Part shown: positions 1 to 11,139 of the stretch, in pieces
Numbering within the stretch: position 1 is the first letter of the stretch
Layout of the letters: each line of letters starts with the position of its first letter
IMG/VR virus record: IMGVR_UViG_3300045988_158900
Direction: 5' to 3' (one strand)
DNA length: 11,139 nt
DNA from: a virus
Made by a program: the position numbers and the translations under genes
The notes under the pieces: model-generated
Databases searched by the model: none
What the model was told of the DNA's origin: nothing
The model's input: only the letters and a program-made list of their open reading frames with translations

Positions 1-3
1 AAT

Positions 4-45
4 TTATAATATAATATATATATAAGATGAAGAAAGGAAATGATA
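4..45 (+). promoter_or_regulatory. AT-rich promoter/5'UTR cassette (TTATAATATAATATATATATAAG...AAAGGAAA) upstream of ORF 50-1789. Any -35 would lie outside the window.
   Basis: Same cassette recurs at 1829-1860 and 3329-3360 (TATATAATAT(A/T)TATA...TAAG...AAAGGAAG). It contains TATAAT-like hexamers and an AAGGAA Shine-Dalgarno-like element 9-10 nt before the ATG at 50. Confidence 0.4.
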
Positions 46-49
46 CAAA

Positions 50-1789
50 ATGAATCTGTATGACGCCCTGACTACGGAAGATATTGACCTGATTCGTGCT
101 TACATTGAGGCATATGGCGGCAAGAATGATGAGTATGATGCAACTGGCTGTTGTGTTCAGTCTATGCCGAACACGATGGCGCCGTGGGCAGAGGCTAAGG
201 AGCGTCTTTATACGATGTTCGGTGAGCAGCTTGTTCTGAGGAAGTCCTTTAACTTCTCTAAGGGCGTCGATGAGTTGGCCGATGAAATCAATGATGCTCG
301 TTATCGCAGAGATGGCAACGGTATCTCTGAGATGGACACTTTGATTCGTGAAAATTTCTGGCCTCGGAATATTTATTCCGCTCTGGGTCTGGATGATGAC
401 CAGGCGGATAATATTACTCGTCTGGTTGACTCCTATATACTGGCTAATAATTCTTGGAGCCGCACTGAGTTCACTGTGAATGGCGTTCGTGTGAATACTG
501 GTGCTAAGGCTGTGAAGATTCTGGGTAAGATTCTCGCCACTTTTGAGAATCCTGAGTGGAACGAAATCTTTGAGCAGTTCCGTCTGGAACATTCTCGTAT
601 TCTCAATCAGAAGAAGCTGACCGGTGAACTGTGCCTGTCTATTCACCCTCTGGATTTTATGACAATGAGCGATAATAACGAGGGCTGGGACAGCTGTATG
701 AGCTGGCAGGCTTGCGGTGATTATCGTCAGGGCACCGTAGAGATGATGAACTCTCCTTGTGTCGTGGTGGCGTATCTGCGGAATCCTGACTATGAGATGG
801 ATATTCCCGACGGCCATTGGAACAGCAAGAAGTGGCGTTGTCTGTTTGTTGTTGACCGCGATGTTATTGTTAATATTCGTGAGTATCCCTATTGTAATGA
901 TGAACTGGTGGGCGAGTGCCTGAATTGGTTGAAGAGCCTGGCCGAGAAGAATCTCCATTACCAGTATCGTGATACTACCTGTCGATATCGCGCAGATCGC
1001 GAGAACACTGTTCAGGTTGGCGAGAAGAAAATTCCTGTGAATTTTTTTACTGGTCATATGTATAACGATTTCCGTTTTGAGCATCTGATGTATCTGAATG
1101 CCGCTCTGCCGGATAAGATTGACATTTATTACTCTGGTGTGAGTGAGTGCCTGGGTTGCGGTAAGACTTCCAGCGGCTATGATGAAAGCCTCCTGAGTTC
1201 TAATGATTTGATTTGTCATAGCTGTAATGGCGATGGCGAGTGCGAAGAGTGCGGTCGTTATTGCGATGCTGAGGAATTGTATGAGGTTGAGGGCCATTTG
1301 ATTTGTCAGGATTGCTATGATAACGAGACTGCTGAGTGCCCCGTTTGTCAGCGTGAGGTTGACCTCCACAATGAAAAGTGTGAGAATTGGCGCGACCAAT
1401 TACCTGACCCTGAGCGCCATTTCATCCGTAGCGATAATACATTTGAAATCGCGTTCAATAACTATATCACTCATCTCCACTTTGATACTCTGTGTGAGTG
1501 TTGTGCTAAGAAGATTCGTTCTGGCGAAATCAAGGATTACGGCCCCGTTGAGCAGTTTGTTGATAAGTGGAACATTTCTCATACTTATCTGGATTTGGAG
1601 AAGATGACTGAGGACGCTGTTCAGGACATTATTCCTTGGAATGATAAGGGCTGGATGGAGCACCGCAGAGACAATCCTAACCGCAGTTGGGTAAGTCTCA
1701 AAACAGGATATTGCGATTTTGATAAGGGTTATTTCATTGATGAAGAGGGGAACGAAATCGAAAATCCTCGCAAAATTTTCTTCTCCTAA
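50..1789 (+). CDS. Hypothetical protein (579 aa), paralog of ORF 4411-5874. It has a conserved HPLD/SC/WNSKKWRC/YPY core and a C-terminal zinc-ribbon-like region with multiple CxxC pairs.
   Basis: Long uninterrupted ORF with an ATG preceded by AAAGGAAA, ending in TAA. Shares blocks with ORF 4411-5874: SIHPLDFMTMSD vs SVHPLDYLSLSE, DSCMSW vs RSCHAL, WNSKKWRCLFVVD vs WNSKKWRCLGFLAD, REYPYCND vs GRPYPYEA. C-terminus: CLGCG...CHSCNGDGECEECGRYC...CQDC...CPVCQ...CECC. Family not recognised by me. Confidence 0.8.
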   Translation: MNLYDALTTEDIDLIRAYIEAYGGKNDEYDATGCCVQSMPNTMAPWAEAKERLYTMFGEQLVLRKSFNFSKGVDELADEINDARYRRDGNGISEMDTLIRENFWPRNIYSALGLDDDQADNITRLVDSYILANNSWSRTEFTVNGVRVNTGAKAVKILGKILATFENPEWNEIFEQFRLEHSRILNQKKLTGELCLSIHPLDFMTMSDNNEGWDSCMSWQACGDYRQGTVEMMNSPCVVVAYLRNPDYEMDIPDGHWNSKKWRCLFVVDRDVIVNIREYPYCNDELVGECLNWLKSLAEKNLHYQYRDTTCRYRADRENTVQVGEKKIPVNFFTGHMYNDFRFEHLMYLNAALPDKIDIYYSGVSECLGCGKTSSGYDESLLSSNDLICHSCNGDGECEECGRYCDAEELYEVEGHLICQDCYDNETAECPVCQREVDLHNEKCENWRDQLPDPERHFIRSDNTFEIAFNNYITHLHFDTLCECCAKKIRSGEIKDYGPVEQFVDKWNISHTYLDLEKMTEDAVQDIIPWNDKGWMEHRRDNPNRSWVSLKTGYCDFDKGYFIDEEGNEIENPRKIFFS

Positions 1790-1809
1790 CTGGTTCAATA
1801 TAAAGTATT

Positions 1810-1838
1810 TTGATTTTTTTAAAAAAAAATTATATAAT
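1810..1838 (+). promoter_or_regulatory. sigma70-like promoter: TTGATT (-35, 1810-1815), 17-nt spacer, TATAAT (-10, 1833-1838). It sits inside the conserved TTATATAATATATAT cassette (1829-1860).
   Basis: Hexamers read directly: 4/6 match at -35, 6/6 at -10, 17-bp spacer. Downstream GTAAGG-N10-CCTTAC small hairpin (1845-1866), then RBS AAAGAGG before the ATG at 1901. Confidence 0.45.
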
Positions 1839-1900
1839 ATATATGTAAGGTAAAGGAAGACCTTACAACAAAAATAAATTTTTGAAAGAGGTATACAAAT

Positions 1901-2308
1901 ATGAAGACTACCGATCGCACCACTAAGCGTGATTTTTATGAGGCTATTATCAAGGCTATGGAGACTGGCGAGACTGATGTCGAGCCCACCAAGATTATCG
2001 AGTTCTGTGAGAACGAGATTGCCCTGCTGGACAAGAAGGCCGATAAGGCTAAGGAGCGCGCCGCTGCTAAGAAGGCCGAGGCTGACGAGCTGATGGATAA
2101 GGTGTATGCCGTCCTGAGCGATACCGAGTTTATGACTCGTAATGCTGTGATGGATGCTCTGGGTGATATGCCTGAGGATGTGACCATCGCTAAGGTCGGC
2201 GCTCGCCTGACTAAGTTGGTCGGGGCTGAGAAGGTCGAGAAGGCTGAGCAGACCGTGGCTAATGCCGAGGGCAAGAAGTCCAAGGTTATGGGCTACCGCA
2301 AGATTTAA
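1901..2308 (+). CDS. Hypothetical small protein (135 aa), Glu/Lys/Ala-rich and probably helical.
   Basis: ATG with RBS GAAAGAGG 7 nt upstream; TAA stop; followed by a strong terminator. Composition KKADKAKERAAAKKAEADELMDKV. Net charge is about neutral (about 25 K/R vs about 27 D/E), so I do not call it histone-like. Confidence 0.75.
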   Translation: MKTTDRTTKRDFYEAIIKAMETGETDVEPTKIIEFCENEIALLDKKADKAKERAAAKKAEADELMDKVYAVLSDTEFMTRNAVMDALGDMPEDVTIAKVGARLTKLVGAEKVEKAEQTVANAEGKKSKVMGYRKI

Positions 2309-2328
2309 TCAAAATACTCTGATTCTTG

Positions 2329-2366
2329 AATGAGGTTAGGATTTAATTCCTAACCTCATTTTTCTA
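2329..2366 (+). terminator. Rho-independent terminator: perfect 13-bp stem AATGAGGTTAGGA / TCCTAACCTCATT with loop TTTAAT, followed by TTTTTCT.
   Basis: Inverted repeat 2329-2341 / 2348-2360 is exactly complementary. The T-run follows immediately. It lies 21 nt after the stop of ORF 1901-2308. Confidence 0.7.
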
Positions 2367-2447
2367 TGGGTCTGCTCCGGGCGAGGTCGGGGGCAAAGAC
2401 CGAAAACCCAAATCAAAATATGGCTTACTAATTTTTCAATCAATTTA

Positions 2448-2476
2448 TTGACATATATTAAAAAATATGCTATAAT
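2448..2476 (+). promoter_or_regulatory. Consensus sigma70 promoter: TTGACA (2448-2453), 17-nt spacer, TATAAT (2471-2476).
   Basis: Both hexamers 6/6 with optimal 17-bp spacing. RBS AAAAGGA 2485-2491. ATG at 2501. Confidence 0.6.
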
Positions 2477-2500
2477 AAAAACAAAAAAGGATTTATTATA

Positions 2501-3313
2501 ATGAGATATTGTTTGAAATATATAAAAAATCAATATATCCAAGAGGCTGATGAAATTCTATTCGCAGATAATCATGGTGATGATATGATTGACGCAATAG
2601 AACAATATCCTCACGCAGATTTTATTTATGAGGTTGTTGATGAGCCTGATTGGGATTATTTAAAAATGATTAATAGTAAATTAAATGAAACTGGTCGGCG
2701 ATTAATCATTTCTACTCTTTATTCTATAATTGCCCAAGAGGCAAAAGAAAATGGATTGGCGTTTTATTTTTCATTTGCGATTAACAATTTCGCAGATTTA
2801 CAAGCTGTGTGTGAATTAGGCGCTTGTTATGCGCTTATTACGGCTCCAATCTTTTTCGAGCAGGATAAATTGGAAAAATTTTCCATTCCACTTCGCTATC
2901 GTGCCAATGTCGCATATAGTGGTAATTTGACTACAAAACGCGTAAATGCGAATGCGGCGTTTATTCGTCCTGAGGATGTAGACCTTTATGATTATGATAC
3001 AACAACCATTGAGTTTGGCGCAACCCATACTGAACAAGAAGAGGTTTTATATCGTTTATATAAATATAATAAGTGTTGGCCGGGCGATTTGAATATGGTA
3101 ATTACAACTCTTAATGTCGTGCCCGCACCGATGAATCGAATGATTGGGCCAGACTTCGGCAAGCATAGATTGAACTGCGGCCAACGATGCGTAGAAGGCG
3201 ATACTCTTCAATGCCATTTGTGTTTTAATCAAATGACATTAGCAAATCCGTCAAAAATTAAGGATTATATAGACAATGTAATTTTACCAGTTAGACAAGA
3301 AAAGATAAATTGA
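2501..3313 (+). CDS. Hypothetical protein (270 aa) with a C-terminal Cys cluster (CGQRC...CHLC).
   Basis: Uninterrupted ORF. ATG preceded by a consensus promoter and AAGGA RBS. TGA stop. More AT-rich than its neighbours. No family recognised. Confidence 0.75.
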   Translation: MRYCLKYIKNQYIQEADEILFADNHGDDMIDAIEQYPHADFIYEVVDEPDWDYLKMINSKLNETGRRLIISTLYSIIAQEAKENGLAFYFSFAINNFADLQAVCELGACYALITAPIFFEQDKLEKFSIPLRYRANVAYSGNLTTKRVNANAAFIRPEDVDLYDYDTTTIEFGATHTEQEEVLYRLYKYNKCWPGDLNMVITTLNVVPAPMNRMIGPDFGKHRLNCGQRCVEGDTLQCHLCFNQMTLANPSKIKDYIDNVILPVRQEKIN

Positions 3314-3338
3314 CAATTTTATTTAAATATTATATAAT
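3310..3338 (+). promoter_or_regulatory. Consensus sigma70 promoter: TTGACA (3310-3315, overlapping the TGA stop of the upstream gene), 17-nt spacer, TATAAT (3333-3338). It is embedded in the conserved TATATAATAT...TAAG AAAGGAAG cassette (3329-3360).
   Basis: Hexamers 6/6 and 6/6, spacer 17. The RBS AAGGAAG inside the cassette lies 7 nt before the ATG at 3371. Confidence 0.6.
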
Positions 3339-3370
3339 ATTTATATAAAATAAGAAAGGAAGATTGATAG

Positions 3371-4411
3371 ATGCGAGTGATGAAAGACTCTGAGTATCTA
3401 GCATTTAAGCAGTTAGCCAAGCTTACTCAAGACCAAATGATTAGGGCTATGCGTGCGGTGTTAGAGGCTCGTTATACAGATATTATCGCAACAAAGGAAT
3501 ATATTGTAGCCAAGGGAGATATTCCTATCGGATTGGTTGCCCATATGGATACAGTGTTTCCGCTTCCTCCTACTGAAATTTATTATGATACTACACAGAA
3601 TGTTGTGTGGAGTCCGCAGGGTCTTGGAGCTGATGACCGCGCTGGTATATTCGCGATTCTTCAGATTCTGAAGACTACAAAATTGCGTCCGCATATTATT
3701 TTGACAACTGATGAAGAGAAGGGTGGATGGGGCGCGTACGCCCTTGTTGAACAGCATCCCGATTTTCCGTTTGGTGATTTGAAATATCTGATTCAGTTGG
3801 ACCGCCAGGGCGCGAATGATTGTGTGTTTTATGATGGTATCAATGAAGATTTTATTCGTTATGTATCTTCTTTTGGTTTCGTAGAGCATATTGGTTCATT
3901 CAGCGATATTAGTATTCTGTGTCCATTCTGGGATGTGTGCGGCGTCAATCTTTCTGTCGGTTATAAAAATGAGCATAGTCTCATTGAAACATTAAATATT
4001 AGCCATTTGTTCGATACCATCCAAAAGGTGAAGAGAATGTTGATGGTGAAGGAAATTCCTGATTTTGAGTGGAAGGAAAAATATTATCCTTATTTCACTA
4101 ATGGGTATCCTTTGGATGATGACATTGATGAATATAGCGCGGCTTATGGCTATAATTGGGTAAATGATAGACGTTCTGTTGATGCTTATACGGTAATTTG
4201 TCATAATTGTAAGAAGCCGTTTTATAATTATGAGACATTCCCCACTAAGAAAATCGATGGTGGAACTATGTTCTTGTGCCCCGATTGTGTGGGCGACCAT
4301 GCTAATTGGTGCGATTGTTGTGGCGAAGCATTTGAGCGCACACCGGAAAACGCCGGGGCCACTCTTTGCCCTGACTGTGCGAAAATTGAGAAGATTAAGG
4401 TTAAAGGTTAA
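3371..4411 (+). CDS. Metallopeptidase-like protein: a clan MH (M42/M20/M28-like) domain fused to a C-terminal four-CxxC zinc ribbon.
   Basis: Motifs in the order expected for co-catalytic zinc peptidases: VAHMDTV (H-x-D), GADDRAGIFAIL (DDRAG, as in M42/M20), TTDEEKGGWGA (the Glu-Glu pair). C-terminus: CHNCKK...CPDC...CDCC...CPDC. The TAA stop overlaps the next ATG (TAATG at 4409-4413). Confidence 0.55.
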   Translation: MRVMKDSEYLAFKQLAKLTQDQMIRAMRAVLEARYTDIIATKEYIVAKGDIPIGLVAHMDTVFPLPPTEIYYDTTQNVVWSPQGLGADDRAGIFAILQILKTTKLRPHIILTTDEEKGGWGAYALVEQHPDFPFGDLKYLIQLDRQGANDCVFYDGINEDFIRYVSSFGFVEHIGSFSDISILCPFWDVCGVNLSVGYKNEHSLIETLNISHLFDTIQKVKRMLMVKEIPDFEWKEKYYPYFTNGYPLDDDIDEYSAAYGYNWVNDRRSVDAYTVICHNCKKPFYNYETFPTKKIDGGTMFLCPDCVGDHANWCDCCGEAFERTPENAGATLCPDCAKIEKIKVKG

Positions 4412-5874
4412 TGAAGAGTTATAATTTAGATGAACTAAAGCAGCAAGTTAAACACGTATTAGAGTATAGTCAGGGTATTTATGATGTGAGTGAAGCCGCT
4501 CTTGATAATATGATGAATGAATGGGAGCGCAATAAAGCGCAATTCATTAATAATTTTATGGGCGGTAAACTCATTGTGGAACTGCCGGGCAAGCGCTTCT
4601 TCCATCTGGGAGAGAAGGCAAAACTCAAGAAATATAATGATTTCTTGGATTATGTTGCTCTGCGAATAAATAATTATGAGTTATGCCGATTTATCGAAAC
4701 GCAGGGTGAAGAAGGATTCTATGAGAATACCGTAAAAACTGGTTGGGACCATACTAAGAGTAATACATTTATTTCGCCGGGTTCTAAACTAATACGAGCA
4801 TTTAAATATTTTATTGAAGATAAGGATTTGCTGGAAACTGTTCAAAATGAGGCCAGTCGTATTATTCAAGGAGACTGTATTGAGGGCATTCTTTGTATAT
4901 CAGTCCATCCCCTTGATTACCTCAGCTTAAGCGAAACTACATATAACTGGCGTTCTTGCCACGCTCTTGATGGTGAATATCGCGCTGGTAATTTGAGTTA
5001 TTTGATGGATGGTAGTACATTTATCTGTTATTTAAGAGGCGATGATAAACAAAACCTCCCTTCATTTCCCGATGATTTACTCTGGAATAGTAAGAAGTGG
5101 CGTTGTTTGGGCTTCTTGGCTGATGATGAAAATGGTATCATTATGGGCCGTCCATATCCTTATGAAGCCGCAGATATTATTGATGAACTTCGTTGGGAAG
5201 TGTTTAATAGAGAATGGAATTTGGGCCTTGGTAGTTGGCGCGCAGACGCCATTCGTTCGGTTCAAGACCGCTTAACTAACTGGGATGAAGATTTAAGTCG
5301 TACTTATATCCCTTGGAATGGCCGTCTTGTAGAACTTGATAAAACTGTTCATGACTGTCCAAGTCCTACTCATTATAATGATATTCTTTTATCCAGTTGT
5401 TATTTGCCTATTTATGCTCGTGGTAAAGGATATTTTGGTAAGAATGATTGGAAGAAGGTTCAGTATCATATTGGACATTCAGTAATGTGTATCCATTGTA
5501 ATTCTGAGTATGTATCTCCTGGTGATGGCACAATGATGTGTCGTTCTTGTGAGATTAGATATGGCAATTCTGACAGTGATAATATTGTTTATTGTGAGAA
5601 TTGCGGTTGTCGTTTATGGTATGAAGATGCAATTGTTGTTGGAGATAATGGAAATTATCTTTGTAGTGAGTGCGCCAGTAGAATCACCAAAACTTGTAGA
5701 GATTGCGGTAATCCATATTACATTGATGATTTAACATATCACAAAGACGATGAAGATGAAAACGGCGGATATTATCTGTGTGGATGGTGCGAACAAGATA
5801 GACAGGACACGGAAGAAATCGCAGAAAATGAATCTTCTACTACTACCATCAGTTTTGATGAATTTGATCTGTAG
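4411..5874 (+). CDS. Hypothetical protein (487 aa), paralog of ORF 50-1789, with a C-terminal multi-CxxC zinc-ribbon region.
   Basis: Start codon overlaps the upstream stop, suggesting translational coupling. Shares the HPLD / SC / WNSKKWRC / YPY core with ORF 50-1789. C-terminus: CIHCN...CRSCE...CENCGC...CSECA...CRDCG...CGWCE. It ends at TAG, the only TAG terminator in the window (see findings). Confidence 0.8.
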   Translation: MKSYNLDELKQQVKHVLEYSQGIYDVSEAALDNMMNEWERNKAQFINNFMGGKLIVELPGKRFFHLGEKAKLKKYNDFLDYVALRINNYELCRFIETQGEEGFYENTVKTGWDHTKSNTFISPGSKLIRAFKYFIEDKDLLETVQNEASRIIQGDCIEGILCISVHPLDYLSLSETTYNWRSCHALDGEYRAGNLSYLMDGSTFICYLRGDDKQNLPSFPDDLLWNSKKWRCLGFLADDENGIIMGRPYPYEAADIIDELRWEVFNREWNLGLGSWRADAIRSVQDRLTNWDEDLSRTYIPWNGRLVELDKTVHDCPSPTHYNDILLSSCYLPIYARGKGYFGKNDWKKVQYHIGHSVMCIHCNSEYVSPGDGTMMCRSCEIRYGNSDSDNIVYCENCGCRLWYEDAIVVGDNGNYLCSECASRITKTCRDCGNPYYIDDLTYHKDDEDENGGYYLCGWCEQDRQDTEEIAENESSTTTISFDEFDL

Positions 5875-5992
5875 TCATTAAATACAAGACCTATATATTA
5901 TATACACGATGAAAATGGCGAATGGATACCTATTACGCGAGTGCGTCAAATACCTCCGCCAGAACGTGAGTAATTATTTAAATATTTAAGGA

Positions 5993-6292
5993 GTGATTAT
6001 TATAGCACGCGGAAGTATTGCTAAGGAAAATGTCGCTAAAGTGCTTGCTGAGTCATTCGGTAAGGACTGGATTGGCGAGTCTGATAAGAAGTATTATGTT
6101 TGGGCTAATGATGGCGGTGAACGCGTTCAAATCGCTATTAGTCTGACCTGCCCAAAGAATCCAGTAGGAGCAGCAGTATCTCCTACAAGCAATGAAATCA
6201 ATTTTGAGGCTGAGCCTGAGAGACCTGTAATGGAGATTACTCCTGATGAACAGGAAATGATTGAGAGACTTAAGGCTGAATTGAATCTTTAA
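5993..6292 (+). CDS. Possible small hypothetical protein (99 aa). The start is uncertain: GTG at 5993 overlaps the AAGGAG RBS, and the true start may be a downstream non-ATG codon.
   Basis: Open frame with moderate GC and coding-like composition, followed by a hairpin terminator. There is no in-frame ATG near the RBS. Confidence 0.4.
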   Translation: MIIIARGSIAKENVAKVLAESFGKDWIGESDKKYYVWANDGGERVQIAISLTCPKNPVGAAVSPTSNEINFEAEPERPVMEITPDEQEMIERLKAELNL

Positions 6293-6297
6293 TATAA

Positions 6298-6331
6298 TGA
6301 GATAAGTCATTTGACTTATCTCATTTTTTTT
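6298..6331 (+). terminator. Rho-independent terminator: 12-bp inverted repeat TGAGATAAGTCA / TGACTTATCTCA followed by an 8-T run.
   Basis: Arms 6298-6309 and 6312-6323 are exact reverse complements. T-run 6324-6331. Overlaps the -35 of the next promoter. Confidence 0.6.
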
Positions 6332-6339
6332 GTTATAAT
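6311..6339 (+). promoter_or_regulatory. sigma70 promoter with extended -10: TTGACT (6311-6316), 17-nt spacer, TGtTATAAT (TG 6331-6332, TATAAT 6334-6339). Probable promoter of the TAG-recoded operon.
   Basis: Hexamers 5/6 and 6/6, spacer 17, TGn extension. RBS AAGGAG 6359-6364. ATG at 6372. Confidence 0.55.
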
Positions 6340-6371
6340 TTAAATAGAATTAGATTATAAGGAGATTTAAA

Positions 6372-7073
6372 ATGTATAATCAAATTATTGAAGAATTAGA
6401 AGCTCTTAAATAGCATTTTGATGATGAAGATATTGTATCATATCAATTACTCTTAATTAAAATTAAGAAAATTATTGATTTAATTAATGATAAACAACTT
6501 GAGGAAGCAGATAAAAGCAAATTATCTAATTATATTCGAGATTATTTAGCAAATTTGCATTTAAATAGAATTTTCACAATTTCTGATTTGAATGAATTAT
6601 TTATTCCAGAAGTGAAAGATTTAGATATTGGTAATAAAAATATTTATATTACAATTTTTAATTTATTCGTGGAAGAATTATCTGATGTAGATAACATTTT
6701 TTCTCAAAAACTTAAATATTGTATTACAAATATGATTTCTAGAATTGCTACTTCTGTAGATGAAGCAATGGCCGTAGAAGATAAAACTCAAGAAACTGCA
6801 GTTAATGAACCTGTTCAAATTATTCCAACTATAAATACAGTAAATACTAATTCATTCGATTTGGATATTGATATTACTAATAAAAATTATTTGAAAGAAT
6901 ATATTATGCGTAAAAATTTAAAACCTTATCGATGTGATATTTGTGGATTAAGTTCTTGGCAAAACAATCCTCTTATGCTATATTTATACAGTAAAAATCA
7001 TATTTATTCAAATAAAAATTTAGAAAATTTGATGTTTTTATGCCCTAATTGCTATTCTCAGATTGGAGAGTAA
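6372..7073 (+). CDS. HNH (His-Me finger)-like endonuclease, 233 codons, with one in-frame TAG (6411-6413) read as sense.
   Basis: ATG 7 nt after AGGAG. Frame open to TAA except for the single TAG. C-terminal motif CDIC...NHIYSNKNLENLMFLCPNCY matches the C-x2-C...HI...N...NL..LC-x2-C HNH pattern. Confidence 0.65.
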
Positions 7074-7076
7074 TTT

Positions 7077-8264
7077 ATGTATTATAATTCTTATAATTAG
7101 AATTATTTTAATGAATTAAATAAAATATTCAATAAATTTGATACTAATAATATTAATGATTATTATAATTTATTAAAATTAATATATGATATATATTTTA
7201 ATGAAAATGTATTTATAATTGTTAATGATGATATAAAATATCAATTAGAATCAAATTTAAAATTACTTATTAAAAAAAATAATTGGTTTATAGATTTTGA
7301 ACAAACTGAAAAAAATATATTAATTTCATTATTTATTATAATTACTTAGAAAATTAATTTTGGAAATTATTATCAAATTAATAATACATTAAAACAATAG
7401 ATTGAATCATTATTATTAGATAAAAATTTAATTAATGAAAAAATGATTCATGATAGTAAAAATGTTTTTCATTTAGTTGATAGTTTTCCTGAAAATGAAA
7501 GTATGATTAAATTTTTTAAGCAATATAATATTGATATTATGAATTAGGAATTTTTAACTATTGGTGATACGAAAATTCCTAATTTTTATTTAAAACAAAA
7601 AAATAAAATGATAGATCATTATTATGAATTTTGCCATTTATTATTTAAAATTTATAGTCCAATCTTATATTATGGTGTTTCATTTGAAGAAGGATATGAA
7701 TATAAAATAACTAATAAAGATATTGTATTTGATTGTGGTGGAAATATGGGACTATTCGCGCTATACTGCGCTTCAAAAGGCGCGCGAGTATATTGTTTTG
7801 AGCCTATGTCTTATATTAGAGATTTTTTATATGAAAGTCAAAAATTATATCCTGATTTAATCCATATTATTCCTTGCGGAGTGTCTAATAGAAATTAGGA
7901 ACAATATTTTTCTCAAACCTATAATCCAGGAGCTGGATCGAATTCAATATTTCATGAATTAGAATATACATCTGATAGATTATATAAAGAAAAATGTAAA
8001 TTAATTACATTAGATTCATTTAGTTAGAATAATCATATTGTTCCTACATTTATTAAAGCAGATATTGAAGGGTCTGAAGCACAAATGCTTGAAGGCGCTT
8101 CACAAATTTTACAAACATATAAACCAACTATGAATATTTGTTTAAATCATCGGACGGAAGACCAATATAATATTCCTACCCTTATTTATAATATCAATTC
8201 TAATTATTCATTTTATTATTTTATTGAAGGAGAAATACATTCTAAATTTGTATTGTGTAAATAA
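7077..8264 (+). CDS. FkbM-family SAM-dependent methyltransferase (C-terminal about 220 aa) with an N/I/K/Y-rich low-complexity N-terminal extension of about 177 aa. Six in-frame TAG sense codons (7098, 7347, 7398, 7545, 7896, 8025). The methyltransferase domain could alternatively start at the ATG at 7608.
   Basis: RBS GGAGAG 8 nt before the ATG at 7077. In a stretch of about 85% AT the frame carries no TAA/TGA for 396 codons, which is very unlikely by chance. Motifs DCGGNMGLFALYCASKGARVYCFEP (FkbM DxGANxG...FEP) and FIKADIEGSEAQMLEGASQIL (FkbM IDxLKIDxEGxE). TAA stop. Confidence 0.65.
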
Positions 8265-8266
8265 AT

Positions 8267-9220
8267 ATGCCAAATATTATTTTAACAGAATATTGTAATC
8301 TTCAATGTCCTTACTGTTTTGCTAGTAAAATGATTGAAGAAAAAACAGATGATACTAAAAATATTTCTCTTGAATAGTTAGATATGATTTTAAAATGGTT
8401 ATTACCTTCAGCAACGAATTTAGATCGGATTGGATTAATTGGAGGAGAACCTACTTTACATCCTTAGTTTAGAGAGATATTAGGTAGAATAAATTCATTT
8501 AATGAATTTACAAATACTTCTTCAATAGTATTTACGAATGGAATTAATTTAAGTGAATTTTTATCTGCTATTGGACCAAATATGTCAATTTTAATTAATG
8601 TAAATGAATTGACTGGTAAATCATTAAATAAACTTAATAGTGTATTAGATGAAATTAATTATTTAAGTTGGTTTAAAATTGATAAAGTTATTTTAGGATG
8701 TAATTTATACCAAAATGAAAATGATTATTCTTATTTTTGGAATGTAGTTGATAAATATCCAGATATTTTAAGAATAAGAATGTCTATTACTGCACCCAAT
8801 AGCAAAGAATTAAGAGCAAATAAAGAATTGTATTATACTATTATGAAACCTATATTATTACAATTTTTAGAAGAAACTAAAAAACGTGATATAAAAATTT
8901 CATATGACTGTAATTAGATTCCGTTATGTTTATTAAACAATGAAGAATAGGATTTAATAAATCAATTAGGGGAATTAAATAGTTTTTGTGAGCCCGTTAT
9001 AGATATTACTCCAGATTTTAAAGCTACTTGCTGTTTTGGTGTTTATGATAATCCCATTCAATGTAATGATTTTAATAATATCGAAGAATTAACTAGATAT
9101 TTTAAAAATCAAATAGTAATAAAAACTATAAATAATAACACTTCCATGTGCAAAGATTGTAAAAAATTACAACTTGCTCAATGTCAAGGAGGATGTTTAT
9201 CATTTTCTAATGTTGGGTAA
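8267..9220 (+). CDS. Radical SAM enzyme with a C-terminal SPASM/twitch-type Cys cluster, a RiPP-maturase-like protein of 317 codons. Four in-frame TAG sense codons (8375, 8465, 8915, 8948).
   Basis: N-terminal CNLQCPYC (CX3CX2C) at residues 10-17. GLIGGEPTL glycine-rich SAM motif. C-terminal CEP...TCCFG...QCND...SMCKDCKKLQLAQCQGGC. No TAA/TGA in frame until the TAA at 9218. Start is 2 nt after the upstream stop. Confidence 0.85.
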
Positions 9221-9278
9221 GTATAAGTAATAAAGTTTTATAATTTTTTAATTCTAAAAAAGAAGGAGGAATTTTTTT

Positions 9279-9716
9279 ATGGCAAATATTACTTATGAAT
9301 TAATTTTTAAATTTACTTCTGGTAAAGAGGTAAATTTTATTGATGAAGAACATATATTTTCTATTGTAGAAGATTATCGTTCTCCAGTTCTTTTAACCCC
9401 TCAAATGTTTGGTATTGATGATTTACGTGAGTATTATGCATTATTATTAATTGATGGCAAACCTATGGAAGATTATGCATCAAATTATTGTAATTTTAAA
9501 AATTTTGGTAATTCTATTGTTGATTTGCTTAATAATGAAGATACTATTTCAGAAATTATTTTAAGAGATACTAATACTAAAGGAGAATATTTCCATATAA
9601 ACTCTGATCAATTAGTAGGTATTGAAGCCGGCGGAGGAACTGATAGAGGTTTTGATAATATAATGGTATATCGCATACAAATTTATTATAAAAAAGTTGG
9701 AAAAATAGGTGAGTAA
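9279..9716 (+). CDS. Hypothetical protein (145 aa) between the radical-SAM gene and the precursor-like gene. Possible accessory or leader-recognition partner.
   Basis: Strong RBS AAGGAGGA 8 nt upstream of the ATG. No internal stop codons. TAA stop 2 nt before the next ATG. No family recognised. Confidence 0.75.
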   Translation: MANITYELIFKFTSGKEVNFIDEEHIFSIVEDYRSPVLLTPQMFGIDDLREYYALLLIDGKPMEDYASNYCNFKNFGNSIVDLLNNEDTISEIILRDTNTKGEYFHINSDQLVGIEAGGGTDRGFDNIMVYRIQIYYKKVGKIGE

Positions 9717-9718
9717 TA

Positions 9719-10339
9719 ATGGGAGCTAATGCTACATCTGTAGGTACTTTAGTTAAATTATCTGATTTAGATGCATTATATTTACGTTTATATAATTTAA
9801 AAGTAGCCCATATTAATGATGCAGATTAGATTAATAAATCTGCTCTAACGGTTCCAGCTCAAAGTAGTGGATTGACACGAGGTAGTAAAGTAGGAGTTTC
9901 AACTGCTAAAATTGCAACATTAAAATCTGAATTGGCAAATTTAGCTCAATCAAAATGGTATCAATCTAACACAGCAAATACTGTAGTAACAATGACAGAT
10001 TTTAGTACAAATATTAAAGTACCTAATGTAGGAGATTTATTAAAAAGTGTAGATTTTAATCTAATTGAAACTGCAATCACTTCTGCAGAATAGATTATTC
10101 CTGCTTATTCCAATAAATATAATATTCGTTATAGTGGTCGTTATTATGGACATTATAGTGATTGTTATAGTGATTGTTATAGTGCTCGATATGGTACTTG
10201 TTATAGTAATTGTTATGGAGGCCGTTATAGTGCCCGATATGGCACTTGTTACAGTTGTTATGGCTGTTATGGTTGTTATCGCAGATATAGCTCAAGGTAT
10301 GGTAGATATGCTGCAAAAAATGTTCAAATTAGATGTTAA
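9719..10339 (+). CDS. Candidate RiPP precursor-like protein (206 codons). Leader domain of about 124 aa. TAG sense codons at 9827 and at the leader/core junction (10091). About 82-aa C-terminal core is a tandem [Y-(S/G)-x-(C/R)] array (9 Cys, about 20 Tyr).
   Basis: ATG with AGGTGA RBS. Core reads IIPAYSNKYNIRYSGRYYGHYSDCYSDCYSARYGTCYSNCYGGRYSARYGTCYSCYGCYGCYRRYSSRYGRYAAKNVQIRC, then TAA. The core has no internal Met, so it can only be made by reading through the TAG from the leader. Flanked on both sides by radical-SAM genes. Confidence 0.7.
10130..10279 (+). repeat. Degenerate tandem repeat with 12-nt (4-codon) periodicity, for example AGTGATTGTTAT x2, CGATATGGTACTTGTTATAG / CGATATGGCACTTGTTACAG. 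Collapses to 9-nt units (GGCTGTTAT GGTTGTTAT) near the 3' end.
   Basis: Read directly; encodes the Y-S/G-x-C/R peptide repeats. The periodicity leaves all three plus frames and some minus frames open. That explains the spurious ORFs 10065-10364 (+) and 10095-10316 (-). Confidence 0.8.
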
Positions 10340-10350
10340 AGGTGAATTAA

Positions 10351-11139
10351 ATGTTAATAAATAAATTAGATTTAATGGGATCCAGCAGCTGTGATTTAAA
10401 ATGTTCTTATTGTTATATTACAAAAAATTGTTCATTTTATAATTATGATTCCGCCGTTCAAGAAGCTTGGGAAACTGGATCTTATTTAACTACTATTAAA
10501 CAAGTTTTTTCGAAATTGGATGCAGACCCTACTCAAATAAAAGATTTAGAATTTTGGGGAGGAGAACCTACATTACATATTAAAGAAATGGCTTCTCAGG
10601 GAAAAGCATTAGGATAGTTATTTCCAGAAGTTGATTTTGTATTAATCCCAACTAATTGGTATTAGATTAATATGCAAGCCTTAGTAGATTTTATTTACAA
10701 TTTTAATGATGGTATCTCTCCTCGTGGAAGTAAATCAAAAAATGTTAATTTTCATTTACAATTATCCATTGATGGACCTCCTGGAGATTTTAATACTTAT
10801 GGTCATAAAGTACCTTGGGATACTTATAAAAAACAATTTGATGATTTTTGTTTTTATTTAAAAGAAAAAGAAAATTCTGGAAGAGAATTAAAAAATATTA
10901 ATATTATTTTCGCTATTAGTGGAACCTCTTAGCAAAAATATATTTTAAAAAATTTAAATACTTTAGATAAAATAAAAGAATTTCAAGAATATATTAAAAA
11001 AGTTTGTAAATATGTAAATGATGAACTAAAACAATTTAAAACTATAGATATATTTTTAGGAACTCCAATTTGGACTCCTACAGTAGCTATTCCAGATTCG
11101 ACAACCACGGAAGAAGCATTAGAATTAAATAAAATTGCA
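10351..11139 (+). CDS. Second radical SAM enzyme, 5' partial (continues past the window end), paralogous at its N-terminus to ORF 8267-9220. Three in-frame TAG sense codons (10615, 10663, 10930).
   Basis: RBS AAAGGTGA. CDLKCSYC (CX3CX2C) at residues 14-21. FWGGEPTL motif. Frame open to the window end with no TAA/TGA. Confidence 0.8.

What the first reader, a model, noticed from the sequence alone, without database searches (positions are those of the whole stretch)
9719..10339. Precursor-like gene: 124-aa leader, TAG exactly at the leader/core boundary, and a tetrapeptide-repeat core (Y-S/G-x-C/R)x~16
The core YSGR YYGH YSDC YSDC YSAR YGTC YSNC YGGR YSAR YGTC YSC YGC YGC YRR YSSR YGR Y is encoded by 12-nt periodic DNA. 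It has Cys or Arg at every fourth position and Tyr at every first. Several C-x-x-D/N spacings (CYSD, CYSN) resemble the Cys-Xn-Asp acceptor motifs that radical-SAM ranthipeptide synthases (PapB/freyrasin-type) crosslink. Alternatively the regular Tyr-x-x-Arg/Cys spacing resembles three-residue cyclophane (triceptide) motifs (aromatic-X-X). The leader (rich in A/T/S/V, 124 aa) is far longer than typical leaders, and the in-frame TAG sits precisely between ...ITSAE and IIPAYS.... If TAG were partly terminating early in expression, the cell could make leader-only versus leader-core products in a regulated ratio.
Basis: partly seen in the sequence, partly recalled or inferred. Interest (0 to 1): 0.9.

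Follow-up and report, generated by a model that had tools for sequence, protein, structure and literature searches.

The report
Phage tyrosine-repeat protein with radical-SAM cassette
A large gut phage encodes a protein with a conserved 125-residue domain and a tail carrying a tyrosine every fourth residue; it always sits beside unannotated radical-SAM enzymes that most likely modify it, and the in-frame TAG is just glutamine in this phage's altered genetic code.

Summary
The repeat is real. Residues 130-197 of the 206-aa product of 9719-10339 carry 20 Tyr, mostly 4 apart (0 of 200,000 shuffles match this), encoded by 12-nt periodic DNA.

The TAG at the "leader/core boundary" is not special:
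- Seven of the eight genes in the AT-rich island carry in-frame TAGs (17 in all).
- TAG aligns with Gln in orthologues.
- The boundary position is Q/T/A/S/K in homologues.

The gene belongs to an unannotated, metagenome-only phage family. It has a conserved helical N-domain plus an aromatic-periodic tail (Tyr or Phe every 3-4 residues), sometimes followed by a Hint/intein domain. In all 10 independent lineages examined, it sits in the order ~135-aa protein, repeat protein, ~478-aa radical-SAM enzyme. This holds across TAG-recoded, TGA-recoded and standard-code phages. A SPASM protein follows wherever the contig reaches that far, usually with more rSAMs, an FkbM methyltransferase, and YcaO or glycosyltransferases.

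The enzyme's nearest solved relatives are RiPP maturases (SuiB, SkfB, EpeE, TigE, ChlB).

Cys is not conserved, so ranthipeptide chemistry is disfavoured. Modification centred on the aromatic residues is the best reading, but it is unproven.

The parts
6296..6339 (+). Start of the AT-rich, TAG-rich island: a terminator-like hairpin (6296-6325, 13-bp stem plus T-run) overlapping the best sigma-70-like promoter match in the region (TTGACT-17-TATAAT, 6311-6339, 11/12)
   Evidence: GC drops from about 0.40 to about 0.25 here. These are consensus matches only; function is inferred.
6372..7073 (+). First island gene, 233 aa, with an HNH-endonuclease-like C-terminus (1 in-frame TAG). It holds the same position in L001, L003, L004, L006, L011 and L012
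   Evidence: PHROG phrog_10822, E 2.8e-15; synteny
7077..8264 (+). FkbM-family methyltransferase, 395 aa, 6 in-frame TAG
   Evidence: Pfam PF05050, 39.7 bits (cut-off 22.7); TIGR01444, 69.3 bits (cut-off 37.7)
8267..9220 (+). Radical-SAM enzyme, 317 aa (CNLQCPYC near the N-terminus; C-terminal Cys cluster CKDCKKLQLAQCQGGC resembling a SPASM motif), 4 in-frame TAG
   Evidence: Pfam PF04055, 43.1 bits (cut-off 29.5). Best PDB sequence match is SkfB, E 2.6e-4. The SPASM-like motif was read from the sequence.
9279..9716 (+). Small 145-aa protein of unknown family, always immediately upstream of the repeat protein (130-146 aa in all loci). Candidate partner or chaperone
   Evidence: Synteny. No Pfam, PHROG or NCBIfam hit. 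The role is inferred.
9719..10090 (+). Conserved N-terminal domain of the repeat protein (residues 1-124), predicted helical. Contains the in-frame TAG at 9827-9829, which is the invariant Gln37
   Evidence: Alignments A1-A3. AF2 pLDDT of about 60-87 over residues 11-125. No fold match.
10091..10093 (+). An ordinary Gln sense codon, not conserved in homologues
10106..10309 (+). Aromatic-periodic tail: 20 Tyr from residue 130 to residue 197, consensus Y-[S/G]-x-[R/C], predicted disordered. Followed by the conserved C-terminal ...K-N-V-Q-I-R-C (10310-10336)
10351..11139 (+). N-terminal 263 residues of a ~478-aa radical-SAM enzyme (CDLKCSYC at residues 14-21), cut off by the window end, 3 in-frame TAG. 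Always immediately downstream of the repeat protein
   Evidence: Full-length orthologue in L001:10633-12069. Family. AF2 pLDDT 91.5. Nearest solved folds are SuiB, SkfB and EpeE. Nearest PDB sequences are TigE and ChlB.

Best explanation
The gene encodes the substrate protein of a conserved, phage-borne post-translational modification cassette. The protein has two parts: a conserved ~125-residue N-terminal domain, and a disordered tail with an aromatic residue every 3-4 positions (here Y-[S/G]-x-[R/C], about 16-20 units).

Proposed mechanism:
1. The N-domain serves as the recognition or handling module, like a very long leader. It may work together with the small ~135-aa protein encoded just upstream.
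2. The adjacent ~478-aa radical-SAM enzyme acts repeatedly on the tail at or next to each aromatic residue, together with the SPASM-domain protein and the other radical-SAM enzymes of the island.
3. The most likely reaction is a carbon-carbon (cyclophane-type) cross-link between the aromatic residue and a neighbouring side chain.
4. Lineage-specific tailoring follows: FkbM methyltransferase, GT8 or GT2 glycosyltransferases, YcaO.

The island is dense in TAG=Gln codons. Expression should therefore depend on the phage's amber-suppressor system, which is thought to mean late in infection.

Shown:
- the anatomy of the protein;
- TAG = Gln;
- family-wide conservation of the aromatic periodicity;
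- strict gene adjacency across three genetic codes;
- the RiPP-maturase-like fold of the enzyme.

Inferred:
- that the protein is the enzymes' substrate;
- the type of chemistry;
- the timing of expression;
- the biological role (released weapon or signal, versus virion or assembly component), which remains open.
For: 1. Adjacency from the protein side. W, L001/L002, L003, L004, L006, L007/L008, L009, L010 and L011 all have a ~135-aa gene, then the repeat protein, then the rSAM-478 homologue.
2. Adjacency from the enzyme side. Three distant rSAM-478 homologues (35%, 33% and 22% identity, on 180-247 kb contigs) each have an N-domain plus aromatic-repeat protein immediately upstream and a SPASM protein downstream.
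3. The arrangement survives a change of genetic code: TAG-recoded in most loci, TGA-recoded in L009, standard code in L014.
4. What is conserved in the tail is the aromatic residue and its spacing. In 58 close homologues Tyr-Tyr spacing is 4 in 79% and 3 in 17%. Across 34 cluster representatives at 50% identity the aromatic is Tyr (75%) or Phe (25%), and spacing is 4 or 3 in 76%. A Phe-only member (L010) keeps the enzyme.
5. The tail evolves about 3 times faster than the N-domain (18/372 versus 38/249 nucleotide differences), as in leader/core precursors.
6. The AF2 model of rSAM-478 is confident (pLDDT 91.5). Its best solved neighbours are peptide maturases: SuiB at E 1e-6, then SkfB and EpeE. 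Its best PDB sequence hits are TigE (8VPO, E 5.6e-7), which acts on a TIGSVS-repeat precursor, and the triceptide synthase ChlB (PMC10878394, PMC11499958).
7. SPASM signatures. The 405-aa neighbour scores 24 bits on TIGR04085 against a cut-off of 27. A CX2CX5CX3C motif is visible in its sequence.
8. TAG = Gln. Gln is 5.1-fold and TAG 9.3-fold enriched opposite TAG codons in orthologue alignments.
Against: - No experiment links the enzymes to this protein. Adjacency is only correlative.
- None of the radical-SAM proteins reaches any curated NCBIfam cut-off for a known peptide maturase.
- Structural similarity to SuiB is remote (TM 0.41-0.45). The PDB sequence hits cover only the radical-SAM core.
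- No RiPP recognition element was detected in the enzyme or in the small neighbouring proteins.
- No dedicated leader protease or exporter lies in the island.
- The N-domain looks like a folded domain with invariant residues, so the product may be a modified protein rather than a released peptide.
- S/Y/G/N/Q/R-rich tails could function unmodified as sticky low-complexity regions.
- Gly is frequent at the position two residues after Tyr (18%). An Omega1-X2-X3 beta-carbon cross-link could not form at those units.
Confidence: 0.55

Rival explanations
1. Cys-based thioether RiPP (ranthipeptide or sactipeptide, or Haft's CXXX-repeat type). The radical-SAM/SPASM enzymes link the Cys at every fourth position to neighbouring residues such as the Asp/Asn in CYSD/CYSN.
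For: The window protein has 12 Cys, 9 of them in the Y-x-x-C register. Among close homologues, position 4 is Cys in 37%. There are weak core-only hits to PapB (23.6-36 bits), the CXXX-repeat maturase TIGR04115 (15-16 bits) and CefB.
Against: Cys is not conserved. There are 3 per tail in P0058 (50% identity, same synteny), about 3% of tail residues family-wide, and none in many members that keep the enzyme (L012, L013). Arg, Lys, Gln or Asn replace it at the same position. All scores lie far below curated cut-offs (340, 350, 600). At best this is a subfamily-specific extra.
Confidence: 0.1
2. The protein is not a substrate. It is an unmodified low-complexity, "sticky" phage protein (a virion, assembly or condensate-forming component with a FUS/prion-like S/Y/G/N/Q/R tail). 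The neighbouring radical-SAM, methyltransferase and glycosyltransferase genes act on something else, such as a glycan, cofactor or nucleic acid.
For: The tail is predicted disordered (pLDDT below 40). Its composition is S 19.5%, Y 17%, G 12%, N 8%, R 7%, Q 5%, typical of Tyr/Arg sticker-spacer or prion-like domains (own knowledge). The N-domain is conserved like a folded domain. No RRE, protease or exporter was found. In L012 the island lies next to a giant protein and a Gp10_C tail-fibre-like gene.
Against: The enzyme is immediately adjacent in 10 of 10 lineages and three genetic codes. This is hard to explain without functional coupling. SPASM-type radical-SAM enzymes and the nearest solved relatives are peptide and protein modifiers. 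The island is not consistently located in a structural module.
Confidence: 0.2
3. Multi-core precursor of many copies of a small Tyr-derived molecule. Each Y-x-x-[R/C] unit is modified and then excised. The product would be comparable to mycofactocin or PQQ-type cofactors, or to the proposed multiple small products of TvgA/TigB. Glycosylation and methylation would be late steps.
For: The units are short and back-to-back, with only the aromatic residue conserved. A basic residue at position 4 in about 50% could give protease sites. Peptidases lie near the island (M28-like gene at 3371-4411, phrog_34186; Peptidase_C1 in L003). The combination of rSAM-SPASM, small protein, glycosyltransferase and methyltransferase parallels mycofactocin biosynthesis (own knowledge). 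The TvgA/TigB papers propose several identical products from repeat precursors (PMC9062424, PMC10878394).
Against: Peptidases are not part of the conserved core. Position 4 is often Cys, Gln or Asn, so there is no uniform cleavage site. Glycosyltransferases and the FkbM enzyme are absent from some loci (L014). It is unclear why a lytic phage would need such a cofactor. Phe-only variants argue against chemistry that depends on the phenol group.
Confidence: 0.12
4. One reading: TAG at the leader/core junction terminates part of the time, giving leader-only and leader-core products in a set ratio.
For: A TAG does sit at codon 125, three residues before the conserved Pro-x-Tyr that opens the tail.
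Against: TAG is a general Gln codon here, with 18 in-frame TAGs in the window. An upstream TAG at codon 37 would stop translation first. The junction TAG is replaced by ACN, GCN, AAR or CAR codons in homologues. The same architecture occurs in a TGA-recoded and a standard-code phage.
Confidence: 0.03

Closest known systems
Radical-SAM cyclophane RiPPs, especially triceptides (3-CyFE enzymes such as ChlB, YhhB, HtkB; Omega1-X2-X3 motifs)
   Same: The precursors carry several aromatic-X-X(-X) motifs. An aromatic ring is cross-linked to a side chain within a 3-5-residue motif by an rSAM/SPASM enzyme. All aromatic residues can serve (PMC11499958). Here only the aromatic residue and a 3-4-residue spacing are conserved, Tyr and Phe are interchangeable, and ChlB is the second-best PDB sequence hit of the rSAM-478 profile.
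   Different: No enzyme reaches a triceptide-synthase cut-off (YhhB model: 32.6 bits against 445). There are 16-30 contiguous units with no spacers, against a few motifs in known precursors. The protein has a 125-aa conserved N-domain instead of a short leader. The cassette carries 3-5 rSAMs and is phage-borne. The chemistry is untested.
Repeat-motif rSAM RiPPs TvgA/TvgB (TVGG repeats) and TigB/TigE (TIGSVS repeats)
   Same: A tandemly repeated short motif is modified once per repeat by an rSAM-SPASM enzyme (PMC9062424, PMC10878394). TigE (8VPO) is the best PDB sequence hit of the rSAM-478 profile, at E 5.6e-7.
   Different: Those enzymes make cyclopropylglycine from Val or Ile and share a GYW motif, which I do not see in the rSAM-478 sequences (read). 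The motifs here are aromatic. The similarity covers only the rSAM core (profile positions 4-85). The hosts are bacteria, not phages.
Haft-type bioinformatic systems: CXXX-repeat target (TIGR04115), Cys-every-fifth CefA/CefB (NF038107), His-Xaa-Ser HxsA-D
   Same: A short-period repeat precursor sits next to one or more rSAM/SPASM maturases.
   Different: Scores are 15-29 bits against cut-offs of 350-600. The conserved residue here is aromatic, not Cys or His.
Proteusins (polytheonamide type) and mycofactocin (own knowledge, not tested here beyond Pfam)
   Same: Proteusins have a very long, conserved leader-like N-region plus many rSAM tailoring enzymes. Mycofactocin combines rSAM-SPASM, a small partner protein, a glycosyltransferase and a methyltransferase acting on a Tyr-containing precursor.
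   Different: There is no NHLP or Nif11 leader homology (no Pfam hit). There is no MftB/PqqD-like RRE hit. Here the substrate is a repeat tail rather than a unique core or a C-terminal Val-Tyr.
Stop-codon-recoded gut phages (UAG read as Gln through suppressor tRNAs)
   Same: In-frame TAGs align with Gln. Terminators are only TAA or TGA. The source is gut metagenomes, on large contigs of 128-247 kb (PMC10879173, PMC11210395).
   Different: TAG use is concentrated in a GC 0.18-0.31 island inside a genome region of GC 0.36-0.53. No suppressor tRNA was present in the stretches fetched.

Membership tests
Ranthipeptide (PapB/freyrasin type) | Maturase belongs to the PapB rSAM/SPASM family (NF047865, cut-off 340 bits) | tested here: not met
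   23.6-36.1 bits, rSAM core only
Ranthipeptide (PapB/freyrasin type) | Conserved Cys-Xn-Asp/Asn acceptor motifs in the core | tested here: not met
   Cys ranges from 3 to 11 per tail among close homologues and is about 3% family-wide. Asp/Asn are not conserved.
Ranthipeptide (PapB/freyrasin type) | Thioether bond from Cys sulfur to a beta or gamma carbon in the product | not testable with these tools
   Needs MS/NMR
Triceptide / rSAM cyclophane RiPP | Aromatic Omega1-X2-X3 (or 3-5-residue) motifs in the precursor core | tested here: met
   Tyr or Phe every 3-4 residues, invariant in alignments. A period-3 (Y-S-N)n form occurs in L013.
Triceptide / rSAM cyclophane RiPP | Maturase is a member of a known 3-CyFE family (for example NF041707 YhhB, cut-off 445) | tested here: not met
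   32.6 bits for rSAM-467. ChlB scores E 0.0044 over the rSAM core only.
Triceptide / rSAM cyclophane RiPP | Cross-link from the aromatic ring to a beta carbon (-2 Da per motif) | not testable with these tools
   Needs co-expression plus MS/NMR
CXXX-repeat peptide system (TIGR04115) | Maturase above the 350-bit cut-off, and Cys conserved every fourth residue | tested here: not met
   15.4-16.2 bits. Cys is not conserved.
Radical-SAM superfamily, SPASM/twitch peptide-modifying branch | CX3CX2C cluster motif | tested here: met
   CNLQCPYC (8267-9220) and CDLKCSYC (10351->). C14, C18 and C21 are invariant in 45 homologues. PF04055 scores 43.1 bits for rSAM-317.
Radical-SAM superfamily, SPASM/twitch peptide-modifying branch | Auxiliary-cluster (SPASM/twitch) Cys motifs | tested here: inconclusive
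   The 405-aa neighbour scores 24 bits on TIGR04085 against a cut-off of 27 and carries CX2CX5CX3C. rSAM-317 has a C-terminal CX2CX7CX3C. rSAM-478 has only three further invariant Cys: C305, C324 and C429.
Radical-SAM superfamily, SPASM/twitch peptide-modifying branch | Fold closest to known peptide maturases | tested here: met
   The top Foldseek PDB hits are SuiB, SkfB and EpeE, at E 1e-6 to 1e-4 but with TM only 0.3-0.45.
RiPP precursor with NHLP/Nif11-type long leader (proteusins) | Leader homologous to the NHLP or Nif11 families | tested here: not met
   No Pfam or NCBIfam hit for the protein. No fold match.
Stop-codon-recoded phage (TAG read as Gln) | In-frame TAGs in many genes; genes tile only if TAG is sense; TAG aligns with Gln | tested here: met
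Stop-codon-recoded phage (TAG read as Gln) | Phage-encoded suppressor tRNA (anticodon CUA) | tested here: inconclusive
   None among the tRNAs in the ±10-kb stretches fetched. The rest of the 128-198-kb contigs could not be read.
Hint/intein domain (subset of family members only, not the window protein) | Pfam Intein_splicing or PT-HINT above the gathering score; N-terminal Cys and C-terminal His-Asn | tested here: met
   P0080 scores 42.9 and L013 scores 45.6 bits against 35.8. P0076 and P0071 score about 33 bits against 27.7. The sequences begin C[LF].. and end ..HN. The window protein lacks the domain.

The most novel reading that the evidence does not exclude
Large gut phages carry a mobile, late-expressed radical-SAM "factory". 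It converts a dedicated protein's aromatic-repeat tail into a long run of small cross-linked rings (16-30 per molecule), possibly methylated or glycosylated. This would be a new class of ribosomally made, heavily modified polymer. The phage would use it either as a rigid, protease-proof virion or adhesion element, or as a weapon or signal released at lysis. In some lineages a C-terminal Hint domain would supply a reactive thioester to attach or release it.
Probability: 0.3. Interest if true: 0.85.

Novelty: new variant of a known kind. Interest (0 to 1): 0.72.

Why it matters
Radical-SAM peptide maturation is known almost entirely from bacteria. My searches found no description of a conserved, multi-enzyme cassette of this type in lytic-looking, large, code-switching gut phages.

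If the tail is modified as proposed, this would have several consequences:
- It would add a phage-specific class of modified protein or peptide.
- It would add several unannotated enzyme families: rSAM-478, the SPASM-only ~420-aa protein, and the 270-aa "PYNFD" family.
- It would give a clean repeat substrate for discovering new radical chemistry on Tyr and Phe.

It also gives a concrete example of why gene callers using the standard code miss such systems. Here the gene is split into fragments by two Gln-TAG codons.

Tried and rejected
1. TAG as a special junction signal. Rejected.
2. Known family for the repeat protein. Pfam, PHROGs and NCBIfam gave nothing. Foldseek of the AF2 model against BFVD and PDB gave nothing significant, best E 0.3-0.7.
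3. Known phages. megablast and tblastn of the window, the repeat protein, the 579-aa flank protein and rSAM-478 against 50,697 INPHARED records found no match.
4. Bacterial and archaeal genomes. A pattern scan of GTDB species representatives found no relative. The broader alignment A3 was too divergent to scan with.
5. My guess that the 270-aa "PYNFD" family is peptidase-U32-like (anaerobic hydroxylase). Not supported by Pfam or a PDB profile search.
6. Glycogenin-like Tyr-O-glycosylation by the GT8 genes. The GT8 hit is marginal (26 bits against 24.3; glycogenin E 0.03). Glycosyltransferases are not universal, and Phe-only family members argue against phenol-dependent chemistry as the core function.
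7. RRE/PqqD-like domain in the 145-aa partner. No hit.
8. Splicease XYG motif. Only about a third to half of the units are Y-G, and this is not conserved.
9. Literature searches for phage rSAM or RiPP systems of this kind found nothing relevant.
It was repeated with P0001.
Full report
**1. The observation**

Under the standard code the region shows only fragments. If TAG is read as sense, the + strand from about 6340 to the window end is tiled by closely spaced genes. One of them runs from 9719 to 10339 (ATG to TAA, 206 codons).

There are 20 Tyr. Twelve of the 19 Tyr-Tyr intervals are 4 and six are 3. None of 200,000 shuffles of the tail reaches 12. Tandem Repeats Finder reports periods of 12, 48 and 9 nt across 10126-10279. 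The repeat is real and far beyond chance.

**2. The TAG**

- In the window, seven of the eight genes of the AT-rich part carry in-frame TAGs, 17 in all. The 520-aa gene upstream has one more.
- Every gene ends in TAA or TGA.
- In alignments of seven orthologous gene families from diverged loci, the residue opposite a TAG is most often Gln (5.1-fold enriched) or another TAG (9.3-fold enriched).
- Gln37 is invariant in 24 homologues.

This is the UAG-to-Gln recoding described for gut phages (PMC10879173, PMC11210395).

The junction position is Q, T, A, S or K in homologues. Its TAG therefore has no special status. Without suppression, translation would already stop at codon 37.

**3. The protein family**

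A word-indexed search found 58 homologues, all from metagenome assemblies and none with a name. A profile search of 1.84 billion cluster representatives found 111 hits. About 45 of these match the N-terminal domain.

The family has two parts:
- an N-domain of about 125 residues, with invariant His31 and Pro102 and near-invariant Ser78, Gly105 and Leu107;
- a low-complexity tail with an aromatic residue every 3-4 positions.

In close relatives the unit is Y-[S 48%/G 34%]-[S/T/G/N/A]-[R 44%/C 37%/K 8%]. Distant members have (Y-S-Q)n, (N-Y-S)n, G-Y-R-S-S-Y-D-S or Phe-based N-F-T-S units. Family-wide, tails are S, Y, G, N, R, T, F and Q-rich, with only about 3% Cys.

AlphaFold2 predicts a helical N-domain (pLDDT of about 60-87) and a disordered tail (below 40). 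Neither BFVD nor PDB holds a significant structural neighbour. Pfam, PHROGs and NCBIfam give nothing.

Some members (P0071, P0076, P0079, P0080 and the L013 protein) carry a Hint/mini-intein domain directly after the tail.

**4. Gene context**

In the window the gene is flanked by radical-SAM genes.
- Upstream lie an HNH-like gene, an FkbM methyltransferase, a 317-aa rSAM with a C-terminal SPASM-like Cys cluster, and a 145-aa protein of unknown family.
- Downstream lies a second rSAM that is cut by the window end.

A near-identical 198-kb contig (L001) shows the rest: rSAM-478, a 405-aa SPASM-domain protein, a 122-aa protein, rSAM-467, a 471-aa protein (a 270-aa unknown domain fused to GT8), two more GT8-like genes and a GIY-YIG gene.

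The same order recurs in every other locus with enough flanking DNA, although short contigs show only part of it:
- L003 (50% identical protein; adds YcaO, Peptidase_C1 and five rSAMs);
- L004;
- L006 (pig gut);
- L007 and L008 (IMG/VR);
- L009 (a TGA-to-Trp recoded phage);
- L010 (Phe-type tail);
- L011 (adds ThiF and YcaO).

I also tested the link from the enzyme side. The rSAM-478 family has 67 members, again metagenome-only and unnamed. Three distant members (35, 33 and 22% identity, on 180-247-kb contigs) each have an N-domain plus aromatic-repeat protein immediately upstream. Each also has a ~130-aa gene before it and a SPASM protein after it. One of these loci (L014) uses the standard code.

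The trio of ~135-aa protein, repeat protein and rSAM-478 is therefore conserved in all 10 independent lineages and across three genetic codes. The SPASM protein follows in every locus long enough to show it.

**5. The enzymes**

None reaches a curated NCBIfam cut-off for any known maturase. Scores against cut-offs are PapB 24-36/340, CXXX-repeat 15-16/350, YhhB 33/445 and CefB 25-29/600.

The AF2 model of rSAM-478 is confident (pLDDT 91.5). Its best solved neighbours are the RiPP maturases SuiB (Lys-Trp C-C cross-linker, E 1e-6, TM 0.41-0.45), SkfB and EpeE. These rank ahead of viperin and MoaA.

By sequence profile, the only PDB hits are TigE (8VPO) and ChlB. TigE modifies a TIGSVS-repeat precursor (PMC10878394). 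ChlB is a Tyr-acting triceptide synthase (PMC11499958). Both hits cover only the rSAM core. The enzyme is thus a remote, new branch of the peptide-modifying rSAMs.

**6. Most likely mechanism**

The conservation pattern points to the aromatic residue as the site, or partner, of modification. Three observations support this:
- aromatic identity and spacing are kept while everything else drifts;
- the tail evolves about three times faster than the N-domain;
- Tyr and Phe are interchangeable.

Phe-only members that keep the enzyme argue against phenol-dependent chemistry (O-glycosylation, DOPA or dityrosine) as the core reaction. Loss of Cys in many members argues against thioether chemistry as the core reaction.

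Ring or beta-carbon radical chemistry fits best. rSAM cyclophane synthases cross-link an aromatic ring to a side chain within 3-5-residue motifs and accept all aromatic residues (PMC11499958). This is an inference, and I give the specific chemistry about 0.25-0.3. I give the broader claim, that the protein is the substrate of the cassette, about 0.55-0.6.

The methyltransferase, glycosyltransferases and YcaO would be lineage-specific tailoring. The dense TAG use implies dependence on the phage's suppressor, and hence probably late expression (model from PMC10879173 and PMC11210395; not tested here).

A terminator-like hairpin and the best promoter match of the region sit exactly at the island's start (6296-6339).

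**7. Rivals**

- Cys-thioether RiPP. Possible only as a subfamily extra.
- An unmodified sticky or low-complexity structural or condensate protein. The composition fits, but the strict adjacency does not.
- A multi-core precursor of a small Tyr-derived molecule. Possible, but there is no conserved protease or uniform cleavage site.
- The TAG-ratio idea. Refuted by the comparative data.

**8. Novelty**

No match was found in 50,697 deposited phage genomes or in GTDB species representatives. No paper was found describing such a phage cassette. The concept of a repeat precursor plus rSAM is known (TvgA, TigB, triceptides, Haft's CXXX and HxS systems). The protein family, the enzyme families, the phage setting, the very long conserved N-domain, the 16-30 contiguous aromatic units and the Hint-bearing variants are new.

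I rate it a new variant of a known kind, with interest of about 0.7.

Noticed in passing
window 1-6300 versus 6300-11139; L001:6654-19297; L003:223-16224: There is a sharp compositional island. Genes of the cassette have GC 0.16-0.31 and 1-14 in-frame TAGs each. Flanking phage genes have GC 0.36-0.53 and almost no TAG. The island starts with an HNH-like gene and, in L001, ends with a GIY-YIG gene. This suggests a horizontally acquired or mobile module.
   Followed up: partly
window 9827-9829 and the equivalent codon in L001, L003, L004, L006, L013: The invariant Gln37 of the N-domain is encoded by TAG itself in 6 of 8 TAG-recoded loci for which DNA was read. TAG makes up only about 27% of Gln codons in the island. 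This may be a conserved early "gate" codon. The loci are phylogenetically non-independent, so the signal is weak.
   Followed up: partly
P0071, P0076, P0079, P0080; L013:9019-9990; L009:505-1497: A subset of family members has a Hint/mini-intein domain fused directly after the aromatic tail (Cys1 ... His-Asn). In most, the residue after His-Asn is not a nucleophile, which suggests cleavage or thioester formation rather than splicing. The window subfamily instead ends in a conserved ...VQIRC with a terminal Cys.
   Followed up: partly
L009 (Logan SRR17035133) and L014 (ERZ28575672 scaffold_38): The same three-gene core occurs in a TGA-to-Trp recoded phage (in-frame TGAs at conserved Trp positions) and in a standard-code phage. 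The cassette therefore crosses three genetic codes.
   Followed up: yes
window 50-1789 and 4411-5973: Two large paralogous Cys-rich proteins (579 and 520 aa, many CxxC pairs) both match phrog_18912, of unknown function. The second contains the only TAG outside the island, at 5872. It is conserved in L001.
   Followed up: no
window 3371-4411: A peptidase-like gene (phrog_34186, E 8e-45; phrog_4191 "peptidase") with a C-terminal zinc-ribbon-like tail lies just upstream of the island in W, L001, L006 and L011. It could be a processing protease, but it is outside the AT-rich island.
   Followed up: no
window 10326-10376: An 18-nt tandem repeat (2.8 copies, AAATTAGATGTTAATAAAT) spans the end of the repeat gene (...VQIRC-stop), the intergenic ribosome-binding site and the first codons of the downstream rSAM gene. 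Its meaning is unknown.
   Followed up: no
L001:14993-15800, L003:12534-13361, L011:7920-8747, L012:13108-15572 (three paralogues), L013:13068-13877: A ~270-aa family begins ..F-E-x-P-Y-N-F-D and has 51 invariant positions, including conserved Cys and His. It is a frequent member of the cassette and has no Pfam or PDB sequence relative.
   Followed up: partly
L001:18470-20587, L006:18465-20025, L008:18471-20290: A tRNA array (Trp, Phe, Asn, Leu, Ala, Thr) lies just downstream of the island. None has a CUA anticodon.
   Followed up: partly
L012:1-3054: In one distant phage the cassette lies directly after a protein of over 2,500 aa and a Gp10_C (tail-fibre or baseplate-like) gene. This is the only hint of a link to virion structure.
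   Followed up: no
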